Shown here: positions 4,690-59,568 of the stretch, one piece after another
Layout: each line of letters begins with the position of its first letter
Position numbering within the stretch: position 1 is the stretch's first letter
DNA from: Anaerolineae bacterium
GTDB taxonomy: Bacteria > Chloroflexota > Anaerolineae > Aggregatilineales > J027
Direction: 5' to 3'
Length of the DNA: 64,000 bases
NCBI GenBank assembly: GCA_021463865.1
Contig: JAJTXY010000017.1
Span: 20,635-84,634 of the forward strand
The notes under the pieces: generated by a model
What the model was told of the DNA's origin: nothing
What the model saw: only the letters and a program-made list of their open reading frames with translations
Databases searched by the model: none
Position numbers and translations under genes: made by a program

Positions 4690-5541
4690 ATGGCGGTAGA
4701 TAGACAAACCATAACCCGGCTCACCCGTAATGAGGCAGATATGGCTTTCAAAAAGCGGGTCGAAACCATTTTTGAATGGCTTCCCCCCAGCGATGATCAG
4801 GTGATTTTGGATTGTGCCTGTGGGCGTGGTTTCTATTTGAATTACTATCGGCACATCAGCAGTGTGAAGTTGATTGGGTTGGAACTCGAAGGTGACATTA
4901 TCCGCAAGGCTCAAGGCAATATCGGCCACTTGCCCGATATTTTGTTGACCCAAGCCAATATTTATCACCTGCCCTTTGCCGACAGCAGTTTTGATGGCGT
5001 CATCCTCAGCGAAATTTTGGAGCATGTGGATAACGATGTCGCGGGCCTCAAAGAGGTCTACCGGGTACTGAAACCGGGCGGGGTCGCCGCCATTACCGTG
5101 CCCAACGCCAATTATCCGTTCCTGTGGGATCCCATCAATCGCACGCTGGAAAATGTCTTTCACACCAAAATACGGCGCGGGCCACTGGCAGGCATTTGGG
5201 CCAATCATGTCCGACTCTATACAATCGAGCAATTGCGGAAAGCGGTCTCTTCTGCTGGATTCATGATAGAACAGGAACGTGCCTTTACGCACTACAGCTT
5301 TCCCTTTATTCATAATCTGGTGTATGGTCTAGGCAAACCCTTGCTCGAAAGTGGCCTTATGCCTGATAATCTGGCGGCGGCGGCTGACCGGACAACTTTT
5401 GATCAAAATGATGGCAGTTGGCACAATCCGATTAATCTGGGTTTGGCGGTCTTGAATTTTTTTGACCGTCCCAACAAATTGGATGAGCCGCTGCATCGGA
5501 GTACGGTAAACTTGTGCATCAAAGCGCGTAAAAAAGCCTAA
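4690..5541 (+). CDS. Class I SAM-dependent methyltransferase
   Basis: 283 aa. The ATG immediately follows the upstream TAA. Motif I VILDCACGRGFY, then FDGVILSEILEHV and VLKPGGV. Confidence 0.85.
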   Translation: MAVDRQTITRLTRNEADMAFKKRVETIFEWLPPSDDQVILDCACGRGFYLNYYRHISSVKLIGLELEGDIIRKAQGNIGHLPDILLTQANIYHLPFADSSFDGVILSEILEHVDNDVAGLKEVYRVLKPGGVAAITVPNANYPFLWDPINRTLENVFHTKIRRGPLAGIWANHVRLYTIEQLRKAVSSAGFMIEQERAFTHYSFPFIHNLVYGLGKPLLESGLMPDNLAAAADRTTFDQNDGSWHNPINLGLAVLNFFDRPNKLDEPLHRSTVNLCIKARKKA

Positions 5542-27771: not shown

Positions 27772-28071
27772 ATGCCCCTATATGCCTATCAGTGTCGCAC
27801 TTGCGGCCATGAATTTGAAACCCGCCAAAGTTTTCATGATGCTCCGTTGACGGATTGCCCCAACTGCCAGACCGAAAACACCGTCTTCCGCGTCATTCAA
27901 GCCGCTGGAGTGGTCTTCAAAGGTTCTGGTTGGTATGTCACGGATAGCAAAGGCAAAAAAGACAGCGTGTTGGGCAGCGCGAAGTCTTCTAATAACAATG
28001 CTTCGACGACAACTGAGACCAGCACCCCCCCCGAGACCAAAGCCAAGCCCGCCGAGGCTGCCGCCGACTAA
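27772..28071 (+). CDS. FmdB-family zinc-ribbon protein
   Basis: 99 aa. MPLYAYQCRTCGHEFETRQSFHDAPLTDCPNCQ carries two CxxC pairs and matches the FmdB/CxxC_CxxC_SSSS pattern. The C-terminal tail is low-complexity. Confidence 0.8.
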   Translation: MPLYAYQCRTCGHEFETRQSFHDAPLTDCPNCQTENTVFRVIQAAGVVFKGSGWYVTDSKGKKDSVLGSAKSSNNNASTTTETSTPPETKAKPAEAAAD

Positions 28072-28130
28072 CCCGATTCATTATCGTGTCGAATTTTCCT
28101 GCCTGAGGACTGTTTCTCAGGCGTTTTCGT

Positions 28131-29303
28131 TTATGCTCGAAATTGCAGTACCACTGACTTCCCCAAGCGAATCATATCGCCATTCTCAATTGGCACAACT
28201 TCACCTTGCAGCAACGGCTTATCATAAAACACTGTGCGTTCGCGCACATCTAAATTTTCCAGATAATAGCGCCCTGTCTCGTCATCTAAAAACACCATAC
28301 ACTGACGTCTAGCAATCGCCCTGTCCCGCAGCGGCACATCCACCTTTACCCCCCGTCCAACCGTCAGCGCAAAATCATCCATCGGCCAAATCTGCCCCAC
28401 ATCACGTTTAGCCTTGCTTTGAATGACCTCCAAATAAACTTCCGGTGTTTGGGCGGCCTCCTCAGCCTCAATTTTGGCACGGGTCTGAGCCATCTGACGC
28501 CGCTGTTCAAGTCTCCATTGTCGGCGCTGTCGTTGAGTCACAATTCGCCCAATCAATGCAACGGCCACTACGACAATCAACAAGCTGACCAGCCACGCTT
28601 CGGCAGAAATTCCACCAGTCGTGGAGTCGCCCGATTCCGAGGCGGCAAAAAGCAGCAATACCACCAGCATCAACCCAATCAATACCCCAATCGTATTAAG
28701 AATCATTCGCAAAAACGTGGGTTTTGGGCGAGGGGGTAAAGGCTCTTCTGCTGGCTTCGGCTTAGAGGGGGTTGGAGGTCGCCGGGGGGGTGCAGCGATC
28801 GGGCGTGGTGTTGGTTCGGGACGTGCTGCCCGACTTGCCGCATCTGCCCGCGAGAACATTGGCTCAGAAATTGGCTGGCCCTCATTAGCAGCACTCGGCG
28901 CAGGCCCAATCCATTTCTGCAATTGTGCCATACCATCCGGCTCTCGAAAATCGGCCCGTCGCTGACGGAGTAAATCAAATGGCATCCAATGTTCTGCGCC
29001 GGGGGGTGCATCAGGGGCTATGCAAGCAATAACCGGACGCCCTGTCCGTAAAAAAGGTCGCCACCACGCCTCAAATGCAGCGGCGGATTCCCCCAATGCG
29101 CTTTCTTTGGAGACCACTGCCAGCAAATGGGTAGCTTTTTGTAACGCGGCGGTGGTTTTGCGCTGCAATATGGCATCCTCAGGGTCGCTCTCCGGCGGCT
29201 CCATATACAGCGTATATCCCGCCTCACGCAGTTGTTGATAAAACCCTTGCGCCCATTCCGCGTCAATCGGCGCGTAAAGGAGAAATAATTTTGGACTGGT
29301 CAT
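28131..29303 (-). CDS. TIR-like domain / proline-rich linker / 2 TM / FHA-like domain protein
   Basis: 390 aa. The N-terminus KLFLLYAPIDAEWAQGFYQQLREAGYTLYM...ATHLLAVVSKES fits a TIR_2-like pattern. The linker is P/K/R-rich and is followed by two TM helices. The C-terminus FALTVGRGVKVDVPLRDRAIARRQCMVFLDD...LENLDVRERTVFYDKPL...GDMIRLGKSVVLQF fits an FHA pattern with substituted pThr-binding positions. Confidence 0.6.
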   Translation of the reverse strand: MTSPKLFLLYAPIDAEWAQGFYQQLREAGYTLYMEPPESDPEDAILQRKTTAALQKATHLLAVVSKESALGESAAAFEAWWRPFLRTGRPVIACIAPDAPPGAEHWMPFDLLRQRRADFREPDGMAQLQKWIGPAPSAANEGQPISEPMFSRADAASRAARPEPTPRPIAAPPRRPPTPSKPKPAEEPLPPRPKPTFLRMILNTIGVLIGLMLVVLLLFAASESGDSTTGGISAEAWLVSLLIVVVAVALIGRIVTQRQRRQWRLEQRRQMAQTRAKIEAEEAAQTPEVYLEVIQSKAKRDVGQIWPMDDFALTVGRGVKVDVPLRDRAIARRQCMVFLDDETGRYYLENLDVRERTVFYDKPLLQGEVVPIENGDMIRLGKSVVLQFRA

Positions 29304-30220
29304 GTAATCAAACGTCCCACGACCAATGCAGGGGTATCAGCGCGGCGCAAGGTTTGGGCAATTTTGTTGACCGGATTCCCCATCGGCGTCACTCGTCGGC
29401 GCTCCACCTCAAGACCCACCTCGCGCAGCACCTTCTCCGCTAGGCTAACCAAATCTGGCTTGCCATTCAACTCGTCATCTAACAGATCTAGCATAACCAC
29501 CAGATGTCCCCCCGGTTGCAGCAGTTCAGCCGCCTCCCGTAATGTCCGTTCAGGTTGAGCATACTTCTCTAGGCTAAAACTGAACACCACCAGATCAAAT
29601 ACCCCCGTTTTAAATGGCAGGCTTTCCCACGCCGTCTGCACACGCAGATACCGTGCATACGGATAGGCCGTCAACCCATATGGCCCAATGTGCTGACTCA
29701 TCCCAATGGTATTAAAACCCGACACATCAAGACAGTAGGCGAACCAGCCCGTACTATCCGAAATATCCAGCGCATAGCCCATTGAACCAATCGGCAGCAT
29801 TTCAGCATCCCGCCGCGCTGCTTCCAAAATACGCCAAAATTCCGCCGTGACATTCGCCCGCCGCTGCCAATAGAGTACAGGCCACCCCGCCAATCCTGTT
29901 TGGGGTAACTGCCGAAACGTATCCACATCGGGTGGCAACCATCCCTTCGACTGAAACTGCTGCGCCATCGCCGAAGATTGCTGATTAAAAACGACGGTCT
30001 GCTCGGGTGTCACCAAACGATACACCCCCTCTTGGAGTGGATAGACATGCCCCGCATCTTGTTCGCATACTAGGCCACTAACCGTCTGAGTTAATGCACT
30101 TCCATCCACCGGGCAGCGTAAAAAGGAGAGATGAATACCCCCGCGCTTTTTGAGTCGTTCTTGGGTCAACTGGTGTGGGGTTGACCCATTACCATTCCCA
30201 TATGAATATGAATCACCCAT
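29300..30220 (-). CDS. Methyltransferase-fold protein with N-terminal Trm112-like segment and atypical motif I
   Basis: 306 aa. LRCPVDGSALTQTVSGLVCEQDAGHVYPLQEGVYRLV is Trm112-like. At the motif I position the sequence is YALDISDSTGW instead of the usual G-rich loop. Later motifs are FDLVVFSFSLEKY and LLQPGGHLVVMLD. The stop overlaps the next gene's start by 4 nt. Confidence 0.6.
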   Translation of the reverse strand: MGDSYSYGNGNGSTPHQLTQERLKKRGGIHLSFLRCPVDGSALTQTVSGLVCEQDAGHVYPLQEGVYRLVTPEQTVVFNQQSSAMAQQFQSKGWLPPDVDTFRQLPQTGLAGWPVLYWQRRANVTAEFWRILEAARRDAEMLPIGSMGYALDISDSTGWFAYCLDVSGFNTIGMSQHIGPYGLTAYPYARYLRVQTAWESLPFKTGVFDLVVFSFSLEKYAQPERTLREAAELLQPGGHLVVMLDLLDDELNGKPDLVSLAEKVLREVGLEVERRRVTPMGNPVNKIAQTLRRADTPALVVGRLIT

Positions 30221-30509
30221 GCGCTGACTTGCCTCGCTGTATCAATACCCACGCCCCAAAGGCCGCCAAACCCAACAGCGGCCCCACACACATGGCCGAG
30301 ATAATCCGGATAGAATCATTATCCCAGCCCACCGCCCCTGTCAGCAAATAAACCAAGACGGCCCCAATCACAAACAACACCAGCAGCACCCCACCCAACA
30401 TGCTGCCTTTAATCACGGCCTGCTGCACAATGACCTGTGGTGGTGGATTGGTCTCAGCTACTTGGCCTTGAGTTACATCTTGAGTTTGGCCCTGATCAAT
30501 TTCACTCAC
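30213..30509 (-). CDS. Small two-TM membrane protein (hypothetical)
   Basis: 98 aa with two clear hydrophobic helices. It overlaps both operon neighbours (4 nt and 8 nt). Confidence 0.5.
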   Translation of the reverse strand: MSEIDQGQTQDVTQGQVAETNPPPQVIVQQAVIKGSMLGGVLLVLFVIGAVLVYLLTGAVGWDNDSIRIISAMCVGPLLGLAAFGAWVLIQRGKSAHG

Positions 30510-31204
30510 CCTGACTTCTCCTCATGCGGAATATCTGGAAATAAAAGAACCCCACAGTTAACACAGCGCCGCGCTTTAGGGTCATTTGGCGACAAGCAAT
30601 TAGGACAGGCCCGATAGTACCCGCTCAAGATTCGCTCCGGGTGATTCGGCGGCAACCGCGACAATCGCTGAAGTATCGGGTCTTCTTTGGGGATAATCCG
30701 CTCCAAAATAAGCACCACCACCAGCATCAGCAGCGACGAAGCCGTAAGCCAATAGCCCACACGTAAATGACTGACCTGCGTCCACGCCATGTCGTCGTCT
30801 ACACCAAACGCCGCATAAAACCACGCCATCGAAATAATGGCAAATAAGCCCAATCGCCATGCCAATTTGTACCACAACACCTCATCATAAAACATCATCC
30901 CCATCACCCCGCGTACCATGCTGACAATCGCGGTGATCGGCAGTATCGCCAACAAAGCCCAAGGCGAAACCAAGCTGTAGGGGAAGTAAAAATTGTCAAA
31001 TATTCGCTCAATTAAATCAATAGCCGTTCCACCACGCACATGCCATGGCAAAAATAGCGCCACCAACAAACTCAGCGCCGCCACAAATTGCATCGCATAG
31101 GTCGCCCGAAAATACTTACGCATGGCCGGAATGCCTCCATATCTCAAGTATACCGCAGGCGGGTTTAACCAAATTGCCCATATTGCAAGGTTGCCTTTTT
31201 TCAT
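30506..31204 (-). CDS. Five-TM membrane protein with C-terminal zinc ribbon (hypothetical)
   Basis: 232 aa with about five hydrophobic segments. The C-terminus is CPNCLSPNDPKARRCVNCG (CxxC...CxxC). It is the first gene of the minus-strand operon. Confidence 0.55.
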   Translation of the reverse strand: MKKGNLAIWAIWLNPPAVYLRYGGIPAMRKYFRATYAMQFVAALSLLVALFLPWHVRGGTAIDLIERIFDNFYFPYSLVSPWALLAILPITAIVSMVRGVMGMMFYDEVLWYKLAWRLGLFAIISMAWFYAAFGVDDDMAWTQVSHLRVGYWLTASSLLMLVVVLILERIIPKEDPILQRLSRLPPNHPERILSGYYRACPNCLSPNDPKARRCVNCGVLLFPDIPHEEKSG

Positions 31205-56513: not shown

Positions 56514-57587
56514 ATGCAAAATCCCACCTCCCGCCAGCCCTCGCTTTTCCCGGAATATACTACCAAATTCCCCTCGACTCGGTATCAAGGAAGCAAAGCA
56601 AAGTTGGCAGATTGGATTTGGCAGCAAATCGAGCATTTGCCATTTACCACCTGTTTAGATGCCTTCGGCGGGACAGGAGCAGTTGCCTATCGCTTGAAGC
56701 AGGCCAATAAACAAGTGACTTATAATGATCTTTTGCGCTTCAATTATTACTTTGGCCTTGCCCTCGTCGAAAACAGCCATACTTTCCTAGAACCATCTGA
56801 TATCGAATGGATACTCACCCCCCATACCAATATCGAATATCCAAGTTTCATCAGCCAAAACTTTTCGGGCATCTACTTCACCGACGATGAAAACGTTTGG
56901 CTTGACCAGACAATCAGCAACATTCGACAACTGCAAAACCCATATAAATTCGCGTTGGCCTTTTTTGCCCTATGCCAAGCCTGTATTGTAAAACGGCCCT
57001 ATAAGCTGTTCCATCGCAAAAATTTGTATGTCCGGTTGGCAGAAGTTGAGCGCACCTTTGGCAACAAAACCAGTTGGGATAAGCCGTTTGAAGAATGGTT
57101 TAGGATATTTGCCGCAGAAGCCAACCAAGCCATCTTCGACAATTCCCGGCAGAATTCTGCGATTAATTACGACGCTAGTCAGATTCCGGGTGATTTTGAC
57201 CTTGTTTACATTGACCCGCCTTATACTCACCCCAACGGAACAGGGACAGATTATCTAGGGTTCTACCATTTTTTGGAGGGCCTAACCCTATATAATGAAT
57301 GGGAGCAGTATATTAACCGTAAATCCAAACACCTGCGCCTCAAAACACGGCCTAATAAGTGGGTCAACAAAAACACGGTGACAGCAGCGTTTGAGGAGGT
57401 ATTTAAACGTTTTCAAAACAGCATTCTTGTGGTCTCCTATCGCAGCGATGGCATTCCATCCGAGTCTGTTTTGGTGGATTTATTGAAACAGTATAAGTCC
57501 GATGTGTCGGTGAGACGCTTCGGGCAATATCAATATGCGCTCTCTAACAACCCCTTATCTGAGGAAATCCTCTTGATTGGAATTTGA
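56514..57587 (+). CDS. Dam-like (D12 class) N6-adenine DNA methyltransferase, no adjacent restriction gene
   Basis: 357 aa. RYQGSKAKLADWI, the FGGTGAV SAM loop, and the DLVYIDPPY catalytic motif. The motif order (FxGxG before DPPY) matches alpha-class Dam. Confidence 0.75.
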   Translation: MQNPTSRQPSLFPEYTTKFPSTRYQGSKAKLADWIWQQIEHLPFTTCLDAFGGTGAVAYRLKQANKQVTYNDLLRFNYYFGLALVENSHTFLEPSDIEWILTPHTNIEYPSFISQNFSGIYFTDDENVWLDQTISNIRQLQNPYKFALAFFALCQACIVKRPYKLFHRKNLYVRLAEVERTFGNKTSWDKPFEEWFRIFAAEANQAIFDNSRQNSAINYDASQIPGDFDLVYIDPPYTHPNGTGTDYLGFYHFLEGLTLYNEWEQYINRKSKHLRLKTRPNKWVNKNTVTAAFEEVFKRFQNSILVVSYRSDGIPSESVLVDLLKQYKSDVSVRRFGQYQYALSNNPLSEEILLIGI

Positions 57588-57594
57588 TGACATA

Positions 57595-59568
57595 ATGGCA
57601 CCTCTTGCATACTCAGAGCAACCATTTGAAGGGACAAAGACAATTTCAACTCATTCCAAGATTTGGAGTATTTTCAAAAATATTCTGCTCGTTTTACTGG
57701 TGCTGATTTTTGCCGGACATCTCTTCATCTATCTTGCCTTTGGCATCAACCTCATCCAATTCCCGTTTGACTATGACCAAGCGGAGGGCATGGAACTCAA
57801 CAATGCCATATTGATCGCGGACGGCCAATGCCCTTACTGCGATAACGATCCCTTCCCCTTTTATGCCAGCGGCTACCCACCCTTTTATCATGTGGTAATG
57901 GTACCCTTCGTGTGGATTTTTGGGGCAGAATACTGGTACGGGCGGCTGATTGTGTTTGTGGGAACATTGGTCACGGCGGGGGCAATCGGATGGGCCGTAC
58001 ACCACCAAACGCGCCATAAAACCGTTGGTCTCATCGCAGGGTTAGTATTCTTAGCCTCCAACTACGTCTACCACATTGCTCCCTTGCTCCGCCAGCATTT
58101 ATTTATGGTCATGCTAGAAACCATAGCCGTTGTGCTGATAACAGTAGCGCACGAATACGCCGATGCAGAAAAACATAAACGGCGGCGATTGCTCATTCTC
58201 GGATGTGGGCTTCTCCTCGCAGCGGGTTATACCAAACAACTGGCCTATGCAACCGTCGTGGCGGCCTTTTTATGGATGTTCCTGCGTAATCCCCGCCGAG
58301 CCATTGTCTATGGGATGGGGGTGATTGCGGCAGCAGGGGCGATTTTTGCTGTTCTCTATCTCATCACGGATGGTTACTGGTACACCAACATCATCGCATC
58401 GAACGTCAATCCCTTTGTGCCGGGGCAGTTTTCTGGCTTGATGAAACAATATCTCCGGCTACACTGGCCTATATTGACTTTAGCGGGGTTGATGGTCGTC
58501 TACGAACTCTATTTCACGCGCCTATCGCTGTACAGCCTATGGTTTTTGGCGGCGACGGCGAATACGGCTCTTGCTGGCAAATGGGGAGCAGGCGACAGTT
58601 ATTTTGTAACCAGTTTGGCGTCGGCCTGCATCCTTGCGGGGATTTTTGTCGCTAAGACGTTGCACAGCGATTGGCAATTCCCCGAAAATTATCTGACCCG
58701 TCTGTTGGGGTTCTTGAAAAAACCGCTCACCAATAATCGCGCCCGTGTGACCTCGGCAGCCGGGTTTTTGTCGCTTGGTTTGGTGTTGATTTACAGCCTG
58801 ACCGTGCTTAAGCTGCCGACCAGTGGCCCAATTTTCGGAAAGTTGAGCGATATACTTGGCATCGAACCGAAATTTGGACACCGCTATCCCCTCTATGATT
58901 CGGCGGGCTGGACAGTTGGGTATGCCGTAACAGGTCATTTCACAAGTGACGAAGATGAGGCGAATGGCTGGAAAATCGTAGATCGTATCCGGCAGACCGA
59001 GGGGCTTGTCATTTCGGAGGATGCCGGGTTTACCATTCAGGCCGGTCGGGAAGTCATCACCAATGGCGTGCAGCTAAAAAATCTGTATGAACAGGGCAAG
59101 TATGATCCCACTGAACTGATTACTATGCTGGAAAATCACGAATTTGGCTTAATCGTGCTACGGGCGGGTTTCTATCCTCCCCCCATCCTCGAAACGATCT
59201 ATGATGCCTATACCGTCACCGAGGCCATCCCTATGAACGGCTTTAATTATGAACTTTGGACACCCAGTCCGATATGGAACGAACGCCGCGCCCTCCGCGA
59301 TTATCTTAAATCTGCCAATCCCGATGCCGAGCCATTTGCGGTGCAATTCAATATCCCCGAAAATGAAAGGGTCTCAACGTGGCTGCAAAAACAAATGAAT
59401 CGGTGGGGGTGGCAGCCAGAAAATTTGCCCGAAACTGCCGAGAATCCTTGTGCGGACTATCCCTTTATCCGTCAAAATCGCCGCGCCATTTTACATATCT
59501 GCCAAAATTCAACAGGCGACGGAATGCAGCAGCTAGAGCTTGAGGTTTCGCCACCCAGCCCTTATTGA
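57595..59568 (+). CDS. Polytopic membrane protein, putative GT-C-type glycosyltransferase (fourth type in the window)
   Basis: About 657 aa from ATG 57595 (the listed TTG at 57577 overlaps the methyltransferase stop). The acidic motif FDYDQAEGMELNN follows TM1. About 11 TM segments and a ~230-aa soluble C-terminus. Confidence 0.5.
   Translation: MAPLAYSEQPFEGTKTISTHSKIWSIFKNILLVLLVLIFAGHLFIYLAFGINLIQFPFDYDQAEGMELNNAILIADGQCPYCDNDPFPFYASGYPPFYHVVMVPFVWIFGAEYWYGRLIVFVGTLVTAGAIGWAVHHQTRHKTVGLIAGLVFLASNYVYHIAPLLRQHLFMVMLETIAVVLITVAHEYADAEKHKRRRLLILGCGLLLAAGYTKQLAYATVVAAFLWMFLRNPRRAIVYGMGVIAAAGAIFAVLYLITDGYWYTNIIASNVNPFVPGQFSGLMKQYLRLHWPILTLAGLMVVYELYFTRLSLYSLWFLAATANTALAGKWGAGDSYFVTSLASACILAGIFVAKTLHSDWQFPENYLTRLLGFLKKPLTNNRARVTSAAGFLSLGLVLIYSLTVLKLPTSGPIFGKLSDILGIEPKFGHRYPLYDSAGWTVGYAVTGHFTSDEDEANGWKIVDRIRQTEGLVISEDAGFTIQAGREVITNGVQLKNLYEQGKYDPTELITMLENHEFGLIVLRAGFYPPPILETIYDAYTVTEAIPMNGFNYELWTPSPIWNERRALRDYLKSANPDAEPFAVQFNIPENERVSTWLQKQMNRWGWQPENLPETAENPCADYPFIRQNRRAILHICQNSTGDGMQQLELEVSPPSPY

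What the first reader, a model, noticed from the sequence alone, without database searches (positions are those of the whole stretch)
28131..31204. Translationally coupled four-gene operon: zinc-ribbon membrane protein, small membrane protein, atypical Trm112-like methyltransferase, and a TIR-like/2TM/FHA-like protein
Seen in sequence:
- Four minus-strand genes overlap at every junction (4, 8 and 4 nt).
- The last protein pairs an N-terminal TIR_2-like pattern (LFLLYAPIDAEWAQGFYQQLREAGYTLYM...HLLAVVSKES) with a Pro/Lys/Arg-rich linker, two TM helices, a charged helix and a C-terminal FHA-like domain.
- In that FHA-like domain the GR is kept, but the usual S-R-x-H reads A-R-R-Q and the N-G position reads E-R.
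- The methyltransferase has a Trm112-like N-terminus. Its motif I reads LDISDSTGW instead of the Gly-rich loop.

Established knowledge: bacterial TIR domains are often NADases in antiphage systems such as Thoeris, and FHA domains normally bind phosphothreonine.

Inference: this could be a membrane-associated signalling or defence module, in which degenerate FHA and methyltransferase domains act as sensors or adaptors rather than canonical enzymes. I do not recognise the combination as a described system.
Basis: partly seen in the sequence, partly recalled or inferred. Interest (0 to 1): 0.6.

Follow-up and report, generated by a model that had tools for sequence, protein, structure and literature searches.

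The report
Degenerate TIR–FHA membrane adaptor operon
The four overlapping genes are real, but they are an inherited core-genome cluster of one group of Anaerolineae whose TIR, FHA and methyltransferase domains keep their folds and have lost the residues needed for their usual chemistry, so a membrane scaffold is more likely than an anti-phage NADase system.

Summary
Every sequence observation checks out. There are four minus-strand ORFs with overlaps of 4, 8 and 4 nt. The last protein has a TIR fold, a disordered Pro-rich linker, a 2-TM hairpin, a charged helix and an FHA fold. The methyltransferase has a Trm112-like N-terminus and a degenerate motif I.

The defence reading is not supported.
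- Two independent alignments put the TIR catalytic-Glu column on Trp80 (W in 32 of 33 family members). The conserved Glu78 sits two residues upstream, in a variable column.
- The FHA phosphothreonine-binding residues are missing across the whole family.
- The methyltransferase of this clade has lost GxGxG and the acidic residue at the end of beta-2. An outgroup clade keeps both.
- The genes lie at a fixed place in a collinear block of about 17 kb in all 10 species-level Anaerolineae genomes found.
- dN/dS is about 0.1, in the range of the neighbouring regulatory genes (histidine kinase, ECF sigma).
- There are no PADLOC, phage, plasmid or viral-contig hits for the TIR-FHA protein.

The four-gene coupling is derived. 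Deeper lineages carry an opposite-strand peroxiredoxin gene between the methyltransferase and the TIR-FHA gene, and three lack the zinc-ribbon gene. Only the pair of small membrane protein and methyltransferase is universal.

Best reading: a lineage-specific, non-enzymatic membrane adaptor placed next to a membrane-tethered pseudo-methyltransferase. It is a new variant of known domain families. Its function is unknown and interest is modest.

The parts
30506..31123 (-). Gene A. Multi-pass membrane protein with a C-terminal CPNC...CVNC zinc ribbon. Probably 205 aa.
   Evidence: ORF. Weak Pfam DZR/zinc-ribbon hits at residues 198-220. GGAGG upstream of ATG 31123. The NCBI orthologue is 205 aa. 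Present in 7 of 10 species loci and absent in L015, L016 and L017.
30213..30509 (-). Gene B. Small protein of 98 aa with two hydrophobic helices and a GTG start that overlaps the stop of A (GTGA).
   Evidence: No family hit. Orthologues of 82-104 aa sit directly upstream of C in every locus, including the outgroup loci L005-L007.
29300..30220 (-). Gene C. Trm112-like N-terminus (residues 30-65, 30026-30133), an invariant F..LPQT motif (residues 102-108; LPQTG in the window), and a class I methyltransferase fold (residues 147-253, 29462-29782). Motif I is degenerate (LDISDSTGW) and there is no acidic residue at the end of beta-2 (GMSQ).
   Evidence: Pfam Methyltransf_11 at 37.9 bits and Trm112p at 17.8 bits. 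Family alignment. Profile against solved methyltransferases and Trm112-like proteins. Coordinates checked.
28899..29303 (-). Gene D, residues 1-135. TIR-fold domain. Trp80 (29064-29066) occupies the canonical catalytic Glu column. The conserved Glu78 (29070-29072) lies two residues upstream.
   Evidence: Pfam TIR_2 at 32.3 bits. AlphaFold pLDDT 87. Foldseek matches to SARM1, SPARTA, MyD88 and ThsB. MAFFT and hhalign column mapping.
28719..28898 (-). Gene D, residues 136-195. Pro/Lys/Arg-rich linker, predicted disordered.
   Evidence: pLDDT below 50 for residues 139-198. Sequence. Length and sequence vary among relatives.
28530..28718 (-). Gene D, residues 196-258. Two-helix membrane hairpin with a short acidic loop. 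Basic residues flank both ends, so the TIR and FHA domains should both face the cytoplasm (inferred from the positive-inside rule).
   Evidence: Helices 196-224 and 234-276 in the model. Sequence. A weak match to CrgA was not confirmed.
28443..28529 (-). Gene D, residues 259-287. Arg/Gln/Glu-rich helix that continues from TM2.
28131..28442 (-). Gene D, residues 288-390 plus the stop codon. FHA-fold domain without the phosphothreonine-binding set. It reads G316-R317, A331-R-R-Q334 and V353-R-E-R356, and ends in the family-specific motif LQFR.
   Evidence: Pfam FHA at 38.7 bits. Foldseek TM-score on the target 0.75-0.89. PDB profile hits to CHFR and Rv0020c FHA domains. hhalign against 108 canonical FHA domains, probability 99.5%. 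Family conservation.

Best explanation
This is a vertically inherited, lineage-specific membrane cluster made of two adjacent modules that have merged into one operon in the window's clade.

Module 1 is the small 2-TM protein B with the Trm112-like methyltransferase-fold protein C. In most lineages it also includes the zinc-ribbon membrane protein A. In this clade C has lost the SAM-binding signature and most likely acts as a pseudo-enzyme or binding subunit held at the membrane.

Module 2 is D, a hairpin-anchored protein that presents a TIR-fold domain and an FHA-fold domain on the cytoplasmic face.
- The TIR domain has Trp in place of the catalytic Glu.
- The FHA domain lacks the phosphothreonine-binding residues.
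- D therefore most likely works as a non-enzymatic adaptor. The TIR domain would mediate self-association or scaffolding, as in MyD88/TLR-type TIRs. The FHA-like domain would bind a partner without phosphorylation, as in the FHA-like domains of T3SS YscD and T7SS EssC.
- D appears to descend from soluble TIR+FHA proteins that carry the canonical residues.

What is shown: the folds, the residue losses, the synteny, the selection regime and the absence from mobile elements.

What is inferred: the topology, the scaffolding role, any physical link between D and A-C, and a possible link to the neighbouring cell-envelope genes (ECF sigma factor, PMT_2/NHL, DUF2298).
For: - Folds.
- TIR catalytic column: E in 21 of 30 canonical TIR_2 domains against W in 32 of 33 family members. 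The flanking columns match without gaps, and hhalign probability is 99.1%.
- FHA: the Ser of SxxH and the S/N/G of SxNG fall on variable columns. The Arg of GR is replaced by S, Y, H, T or K in several members.
- Methyltransferase: the window clade reads SDSTG...GMSQ. The outgroup reads GAGMG...ALD, which aligns with GVGTG...ALDA of the solved TTHA0223.
- Synteny: the order HK - GlgP - [A] - B - C - [AhpC] - D - Zn_ribbon_8 holds in all 10 species loci. The continuation PMT_2/NHL - unknown - ECF sigma - PMT is seen in the 8 loci that extend that far and is replaced by transposases in L014. D identity falls to 33%.
- Selection: dN/dS for D is 0.08-0.15, similar to the histidine kinase and the ECF sigma factor.
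- No PADLOC hit for A, B or D. No relatives of D in viral contigs, plasmids or phages. No flanking repeats and no Rfam hit.
- Module independence: the B-C pair occurs without A or D in outgroup loci. A sister of D sits among cytochrome oxidase and ATP synthase genes without A, B or C.
- Canonical soluble TIR+FHA relatives exist.
Against: - Glu78 is nearly invariant (E in 31 and D in 2 of 33). I could not inspect model coordinates, so a shifted catalytic residue cannot be excluded.
- Many other TIR positions are invariant (P12, D14, W17, W81, the WMPFDL motif). This could reflect a ligand or catalytic site rather than an interface.
- No partner for the FHA-like domain is identified.
- Conserved adjacency of D with B-C across lineages that share only about 35% identity, and its fusion into one operon here, could mean a real functional link that I am underweighting.
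- Nothing here is experimental.
Confidence: 0.5

Rival explanations
1. The four proteins form one membrane signalling complex, which is the reader's reading without the defence claim. A, B and D would assemble in the membrane and recruit C, and the degenerate domains would act together as sensor and adaptor.
For: - Translational coupling at all three junctions in the window's clade.
- C and D are neighbours in every locus that has D.
- All four proteins show similar evolutionary rates and selection.
- All four have predicted cytoplasm-facing parts.
Against: - The whole block of about 17 kb is collinear, so adjacency alone is weak evidence.
- An opposite-strand AhpC-like gene splits C from D in six lineages.
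- A is missing in three lineages.
- B-C occur without D in the outgroup, and D's sister family occurs without A-C.
Confidence: 0.25
2. D is an active TIR NADase, and the cluster is a chromosomally fixed abortive-infection or programmed-cell-death module of filamentous Anaerolineae. Glu78 would serve as a displaced catalytic residue, and the FHA-like domain would gate activation.
For: - The best structural matches of the TIR fold are NADase TIRs, namely SARM1 and SPARTA.
- Glu78 is nearly invariant.
- TIR and FHA domains are listed among effector and adaptor domains of conflict systems in multicellular bacteria (PMC7159879 and PMC8195603).
Against: - The catalytic column is Trp, and Glu78 aligns with a variable column two residues upstream, about 200 degrees around the helix.
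- No PADLOC hit.
- No sensor or partner genes of known TIR systems in the neighbourhood.
- Fixed position, vertical inheritance and dN/dS of about 0.1.
- Absent from phages, plasmids and viral contigs.
Confidence: 0.12
3. D is a divisome or cell-wall regulator analogous to the actinobacterial membrane FHA protein FipA/FhaB (Rv0019c), with a CrgA-like 2-TM hairpin.
For: - NCBIfam FhaB_Rv0019c matches residues 241-385 across nearly the whole model, E = 3.5e-7.
- A profile of the 2-TM region has M. tuberculosis CrgA as its best solved match, E = 7e-4.
- The flanking genes are cell-envelope genes.
Against: - The FhaB score is 30 bits against a cut-off of 125.
- None of 16 family members hits Pfam CrgA. 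Only scattered transmembrane noise appears.
- FipA function depends on phosphothreonine signalling, and the residues for that are absent here.
- No Ser/Thr kinase or phosphatase was seen in the ORFs of at least 150 aa scanned in the window or in the gene tables of the related loci.
Confidence: 0.08

Closest known systems
Scaffolding (non-NADase) TIR domains such as MyD88/TLR TIRs
   Same: TIR fold, with Foldseek matches to MyD88 TIR filaments at TM-score 0.67-0.68. No Glu at the catalytic column. The inferred role is homotypic assembly.
   Different: This is a bacterial, membrane-hairpin-anchored protein fused to an FHA-like domain. It carries a family-specific WW-R-P-F motif and an A-P-x-G-x-x-x-W-M-P-F-D-L insert. 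Assembly was not tested.
Bacterial and eukaryotic TIR NADases (SARM1, SPARTA TIR-APAZ, Thoeris ThsB)
   Same: These are the best structural matches (E = 1.7e-4 and weaker, TM-score on the query 0.62-0.76). Pfam TIR_2 membership.
   Different: The catalytic Glu column is Trp. No partner genes, no PADLOC hit and a fixed core-genome location.
Soluble bacterial TIR_2 + FHA proteins (for example clusters P0135, P0123, P0137 and P0097), apparently not described in the searched literature
   Same: The same two domains occur in one polypeptide, in either order. These proteins were the nearest hits outside the family in a search of 1.84 billion representative proteins.
   Different: In 23 of 25 of these proteins the FHA domain keeps the GR...SRxH...SxNG motif, and they are mostly soluble. 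Their TIR domains belong to a set of 30 canonical TIR_2 domains, of which 21 keep the catalytic Glu. The window's family has a 2-TM insertion and has lost both sets of residues.
Phospho-independent FHA-like membrane scaffolds (T3SS YscD/EscD cytoplasmic domain, T7SS EssC)
   Same: An FHA fold next to a transmembrane segment that lacks the phosphothreonine-binding residues. Weak Pfam Yop-YscD_cpl hit at 17.4 bits.
   Different: No secretion-system genes are nearby. The domain is C-terminal to the membrane segment. The comparison with EssC rests on general knowledge and was not tested here.
Class I SAM methyltransferases with an N-terminal Trm112-like domain
   Same: Methyltransf_11 above the Pfam cut-off. 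Profile hits to solved methyltransferases and to the Trm112-like proteins 2jr6 and 2kpi.
   Different: Motif I and the acidic residue of beta-2 are lost in the window's clade and kept in the outgroup. The gene is always coupled to a small 2-TM protein by an 8-nt overlap where D is present.

Membership tests
TIR domain (Pfam PF13676 TIR_2) | Profile score above the curated cut-off | tested here: met
   32.3 bits against a cut-off of 28, residues 7-114 on model positions 2-111 of 122. Precomputed TIR_2 hits are on record for all 19 homologue clusters.
TIR domain (Pfam PF13676 TIR_2) | Flavodoxin-like alternation of five strands and five helices that superposes on solved TIR domains | tested here: met
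   The model (pLDDT 87) has strands and helices A to E in the expected order. Foldseek matches SARM1, SPARTA, TIR-1, MyD88 and ThsB at TM-score on the query 0.62-0.76.
TIR NADase / TIR-based defence systems (Thoeris, SPARTA, CBASS or Pycsar TIR effectors) | Catalytic Glu in helix alpha-C (SARM1 E642 column) | tested here: not met
   By MAFFT with SARM1 and five canonical TIR_2 domains, and by hhalign against 30 canonical domains at probability 99.1%, the column is W80. W is present in 32 of 33 family members, against E in 21 of 30 canonical domains. E78 lies at position -2. The 3-D orientation could not be inspected.
TIR NADase / TIR-based defence systems (Thoeris, SPARTA, CBASS or Pycsar TIR effectors) | Match to defence-system models and presence of partner genes (ThsA, Argonaute, cyclase) | tested here: not met
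   PADLOC gives 0 families for D, A and B. The neighbours are GlgP, a histidine kinase, Zn_ribbon_8, PMT_2/NHL and an ECF sigma factor.
TIR NADase / TIR-based defence systems (Thoeris, SPARTA, CBASS or Pycsar TIR effectors) | Patchy, mobile or island-like distribution | tested here: not met
   Same chromosomal position in all 10 species loci. No hits in viral contigs, plasmids or phages. GC content is like the surroundings.
TIR NADase / TIR-based defence systems (Thoeris, SPARTA, CBASS or Pycsar TIR effectors) | NAD+ cleavage activity | not testable with these tools
   Needs an enzyme assay.
FHA domain (Pfam PF00498) | Profile score above the cut-off and the beta-sandwich fold | tested here: met
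   38.7 bits against 20.7. Foldseek TM-score on the target 0.75-0.89, rmsd 1.6-2.5 Å, to ArnA, DgcB, GarA and Rv0020c FHA domains. Profile hits to CHFR and Rv0020c.
FHA domain (Pfam PF00498) | Phosphothreonine-binding residues: Arg of GR, Ser of SxxH, and Ser/Thr-x-Asn of SxNG | tested here: not met
   The window reads GR, ARRQ and VRER. Across the family the Arg varies (S, Y, H, T, K), and the Ser and Asn-Gly columns are never canonical.
Class I SAM-dependent methyltransferase | Profile score above the cut-off | tested here: met
   Methyltransf_11 at 37.9 bits against 21.2, but the match covers only model positions 47-95. Profile hits to solved methyltransferases at E = 2e-6 and weaker.
Class I SAM-dependent methyltransferase | Gly-rich motif I (GxGxG) and an acidic residue at the end of beta-2 | tested here: not met
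   The window reads SDSTG and GMSQ. Relatives in the D-linked clade read TDGMG or TDDMG, with no Asp in most. The outgroup clade keeps GAGMG and ALD.
Class I SAM-dependent methyltransferase | SAM binding and methyl transfer | not testable with these tools
   Needs a binding or activity assay.
Trm112-like zinc-ribbon domain (PF03966) | Profile match | tested here: inconclusive
   Pfam gives 17.8 bits, below the cut-off of 22. The family profile hits solved Trm112-like proteins 2jr6 (E = 2e-4) and 2kpi (E = 6e-4). Only C36-P37 are invariant, so a full zinc site is not conserved.
FipA/FhaB (Rv0019c) membrane FHA protein | Equivalog model score | tested here: not met
   30.4 bits against a cut-off of 125.
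CrgA cell-division protein | Family profile match for the 2-TM hairpin | tested here: not met
   PDB profile hit at E = 7e-4 with compositional bias. None of 16 members hits Pfam CrgA.

The most novel reading that the evidence does not exclude
A conflict-system domain pair (TIR+FHA) was domesticated in one clade of filamentous Anaerolineae into a core-genome membrane complex. In that complex three classic functional domains (TIR, FHA, SAM methyltransferase) have all become pseudo-enzymes or pseudo-readers. They would work together with two small membrane proteins as a new kind of housekeeping signalling scaffold, possibly tied to cell-envelope glycosylation.
Probability: 0.2. Interest if true: 0.55.

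Novelty: new variant of a known kind. Interest (0 to 1): 0.3.

Why it matters
- It is a clean example of a bacterial TIR domain that keeps the fold but has the catalytic Glu replaced. The domain is fixed by vertical inheritance and evolves under purifying selection. This warns against reading every prokaryotic TIR as an NADase defence effector.
- It points to a wider group of canonical TIR+FHA proteins that does not appear in the searched literature. That group may be the more interesting target for work on phospho-regulated TIR signalling.
- For this locus the practical consequence is modest. It defines a small family of about 20 clusters at 50% identity, restricted to Anaerolineae, with unknown function.

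Tried and rejected
1. hhalign of the TIR family against a single SARM1 TIR sequence aligned only residues 18-67 at 1.3% probability, which was not informative. I replaced it with a MAFFT alignment that included canonical TIR_2 domains and with hhalign against 30 such domains.
2. CrgA-like hairpin. The PDB hit at E = 7e-4 was not backed by Pfam in any of 16 members, so I treat it as transmembrane compositional similarity.
3. I tested whether the canonical methyltransferase next to C-like genes in the outgroup is an orthologue of the window's methyltransferase at 4690-5541. It is not (E = 5e-4 over the generic motif I region only).
4. I tested whether C arose by duplication of that neighbouring methyltransferase. 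There is no significant similarity.
5. The PADLOC 'mad2' hit for C (16.5 bits) is only generic methyltransferase similarity.
6. Word-index searches with A found only close relatives. More distant A orthologues were found only by tblastn in syntenic loci.
8. Rfam, repeat and promoter/terminator scans of 27-32 kb showed nothing that bears on the question. The one exception is a hairpin with a T-run at 28100-28123 between the convergent D and Zn_ribbon_8 genes.
9. Literature searches for TIR-FHA combinations returned nothing specific.

Full report
**Observation**

The region holds four minus-strand ORFs:
- A: 30506-31204
- B: 30213-30509, GTG start
- C: 29300-30220
- D: 28131-29303

The junctions read GTGA, ATGGGTGA and ATGA, giving the stated overlaps of 4, 8 and 4 nt.

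A probably starts at ATG 31123 rather than 31204. A GGAGG precedes that ATG. The NCBI-annotated orthologue is 205 aa. Distant orthologues align only from residue 20-28 onward.

All four genes are real coding genes. Against three relatives, dN/dS is 0.10-0.14 for A, 0.22-0.30 for B, 0.08-0.12 for C and 0.08-0.15 for D. The neighbouring histidine kinase gives 0.06-0.08 and the ECF sigma factor 0.08-0.09.

**Protein D: folds**

- Pfam calls TIR_2 at 32.3 bits (cut-off 28) over residues 7-114, and FHA at 38.7 bits (cut-off 20.7) over residues 314-381.
- An AlphaFold model built on 17 family sequences is confident for residues 1-135 and 288-390. It is disordered for residues 139-198, and it has helices at 196-224 and 234-276.
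- A TIR-only model reaches pLDDT 87 and pTM 0.84.
- Foldseek against the PDB gives FHA domains for the C-terminus: ArnA, DgcB, GarA and Rv0020c, with TM-score on the target 0.75-0.89.
- For the N-terminus it gives SARM1, SPARTA TIR-APAZ, TIR-1, MyD88 and ThsB, with TM-score on the query 0.62-0.76. The related DNPH1 and nucleoside deoxyribosyltransferase folds rank lower.
- Basic residues flank both ends of the hairpin and its loop is acidic. By the positive-inside rule both globular domains should be cytoplasmic. This is an inference.

**Protein D: functional residues**

- A MAFFT alignment of family members with five canonical TIR_2 domains and the SARM1 TIR puts SARM1 E642 and the 'EW' Glu of TIR_2 in the same column as W80. 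E78 lies two residues earlier. The SARM1 sequence was recalled from memory, and its numbering agrees with the known G601, E642 and H685 positions.
- An hhalign comparison of 33 family sequences with 30 canonical TIR_2 domains gives the same register at 99.1% probability, with no gap between residues 74 and 95.
- Column by column, the catalytic column is E in 21 of 30 canonical domains and W in 32 of 33 family members. E78 (E in 31, D in 2) aligns with a variable polar column. The flanking columns agree well: F77 with V, W81 with W/Y/I, R82 with R, F84 with F, R89 with K, P90 with P.
- The canonical catalytic Glu is therefore replaced by Trp. I could not inspect coordinates, so a displaced catalytic role for E78 is not strictly excluded.

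For the FHA domain, hhalign against 108 canonical FHA domains (99.5% probability) and the family alignments show three things.
- G316 is invariant.
- The Arg of GR varies (S, Y, H, T, K).
- The Ser of SxxH and the S-x-N-G turn are never canonical.

**Protein C**

- It has a class I methyltransferase fold: Methyltransf_11 at 37.9 bits, with profile hits to solved methyltransferases.
- It has a Trm112-like N-terminus. Pfam is below its cut-off, but the profile hits 2jr6 and 2kpi at E = 2e-4 and 6e-4.
- In the alignment of 23 relatives, the window's clade reads LDISDSTGW...GMSQ at motif I and the end of beta-2. The intermediate clade reads TDGMG or TDDMG, with no Asp in most members.
- A more distant clade keeps IGAGMGW...ALD. 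This aligns with GVGTG...ALDA of the solved TTHA0223.
- SAM binding is therefore probably lost in the lineages that carry D.
- A motif F..LPQT (LPQTG in 21 of 23 sequences, including the window) is invariant and unexplained.

**Distribution and context**

- D has 19 clusters at 90% identity in the word-indexed search. It has about 20 full-length clusters at 50% identity among 1.84 billion representatives.
- The 10 species-level genome hits are all Anaerolineae or Chloroflexota MAGs, and one is labelled Aggregatilineales.
- In every locus the order is histidine kinase - GlgP-like phosphorylase - [A] - B - C - [AhpC-like, opposite strand] - D - Zn_ribbon_8. Where the contig extends far enough it continues with the 1,600-1,750-aa PMT_2/NHL protein, an unknown protein, the ECF sigma factor and a PMT-like protein.
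- Across these loci D identity falls to 33%, while GlgP stays at 66-70%.
- The AhpC-like gene lies between C and D in L014, L016, L017, L018, L003/L004 and L008. It is absent in the window's clade (L009-L013) and in L015.
- A is absent in L015, L016 and L017, although B is present there.
- The 8-nt B/C overlap holds in every D-bearing locus whose gene calls were listed.
- In an outgroup without D or A, a B-like 2-TM protein, a canonical methyltransferase and a C-like protein are adjacent.
- A sister family of D has a TIR-like domain, with or without a TM segment, and an FHA-like domain ending in LQFR. One member sits among cytochrome oxidase and ATP synthase genes, with no A, B or C.
- The four-gene coupled operon is therefore a derived arrangement of the window's clade. 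The ancient units are B-C on one side and D on the other.

**Defence test**

- PADLOC models give nothing for A, B or D, and only a generic 16.5-bit methyltransferase hit for C.
- Relatives of D are absent from IMG/VR viral contigs, PLSDB plasmids and phage records.
- GC content is unremarkable.
- No flanking repeats and no Rfam element were found.
- The rest of the window is housekeeping. It holds a long cluster of envelope glycosyltransferase, DUF2298 and PMT genes, glycogen genes, transporters and a thiolase.

**Origin**

Among the top 150 representative hits, at least 25 clusters combine a TIR_2 domain with an FHA match, in either order (TIR-FHA or FHA-FHA-TIR).
- In 23 of them the FHA reads GR...SRxH...SxNG, and they are mostly soluble.
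- The TIR+FHA combination is therefore not new as an architecture. I found no paper that describes it. Two eLife surveys only list TIR and FHA separately among conflict-system domains.
- The window's family looks like a membrane-inserted, catalytically degenerate offshoot.

**Interpretation**

The best-supported reading is a vertically inherited membrane cluster made of two modules.
- D most likely acts as a non-enzymatic adaptor. Its TIR domain would scaffold and its FHA-like domain would bind a partner without phosphorylation.
- C most likely acts as a pseudo-methyltransferase tethered by B, and by A where A is present.
- A role in cell-envelope homeostasis is suggested only by the neighbours.

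The rivals are listed with their tests:
- one four-protein complex;
- an active NADase or cell-death module that uses E78;
- a FipA/CrgA-like divisome regulator. Its evidence is a 30-bit FhaB hit against a cut-off of 125, and a CrgA hit that Pfam did not confirm.

**Limits**

- There is no residue-level structural superposition.
- There is no experimental evidence.

**Verdict**

This is a new variant of known domain families, and interest is modest.

Noticed in passing
window 56514-59568: A D12-class N6-adenine DNA methyltransferase at 56514-57587 (PADLOC MTase_II, 208 bits) overlaps by 11 nt a 663-aa ORF at 57577-59568 that has no Pfam or PADLOC hit. The region has lower GC (about 0.47) and lies between a UbiA prenyltransferase and a glycogen synthase. 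It may be a type II restriction-modification pair with an unrecognised nuclease.
   Followed up: partly
window 683-27601: A single plus-strand run of very large envelope genes: PMT_2, an LPG_synthase_TM-like protein, a GT4 glycosyltransferase, a methyltransferase, a 913-aa protein with no hit, DUF2298 proteins of 2,370 aa and 1,087 aa, a 762-aa PMT-like protein, an ECF sigma factor, a 211-aa protein with no hit (possibly an anti-sigma factor), and a 1,754-aa PMT_2 + NHL-repeat protein. The last five are collinear in 8 of the 10 related species loci.
   Followed up: partly
window 29897-29917 (protein C residues 102-108): An F..LPQT motif is invariant across 23 relatives, including the outgroup clade. 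It reads LPQTG in 21 of them, including the window. It resembles a sortase LPxTG signal but lies inside a cytoplasmic protein, between the Trm112-like and methyltransferase parts. Its role is unexplained.
   Followed up: no
proteins P0135, P0123, P0137, P0178-P0180, P0115, P0097, P0141 and others (not in the window): At least 25 clusters at 50% identity combine a TIR_2 domain with an FHA match (TIR-FHA or FHA-FHA-TIR), and 23 of them show the full GR...SRxH...SxNG motif. I found no paper describing this architecture. These proteins are better candidates for phospho-regulated TIR signalling than the window's protein.
   Followed up: partly
L014/L001 7318-7863; also L003, L004, L008, L016, L017, L018: An AhpC/TSA-family peroxiredoxin-like gene on the opposite strand lies between the methyltransferase gene and the TIR-FHA gene in six lineages. 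It is missing in the window's clade, and the window has no copy of it.
   Followed up: yes
L001 9952-14211 (same contig as L014): In the Aggregatilineales genome the block downstream of Zn_ribbon_8 is replaced by two DDE transposases and a group II intron reverse transcriptase (RVT_1 + GIIM). The genes from HK through D to Zn_ribbon_8 stay together.
   Followed up: no
window 27772-28071 and 28100-28123: A Zn_ribbon_8 (FmdB-type) gene lies convergent to D in every related locus, and stays there even where the rest of the downstream block is lost. A 10-bp hairpin with a T-run lies between the two stop codons.
   Followed up: partly
L019 6001-6924: A sister family of D (P0065/P0066 with transmembrane helices, P0068/P0069 without) shares the TIR-like N-terminus and the FHA-like C-terminus ending in LQFR. 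It lacks the stretch between strand B and helix B of the TIR domain. One member sits among COX3/COX4 and ATP synthase genes.
   Followed up: partly
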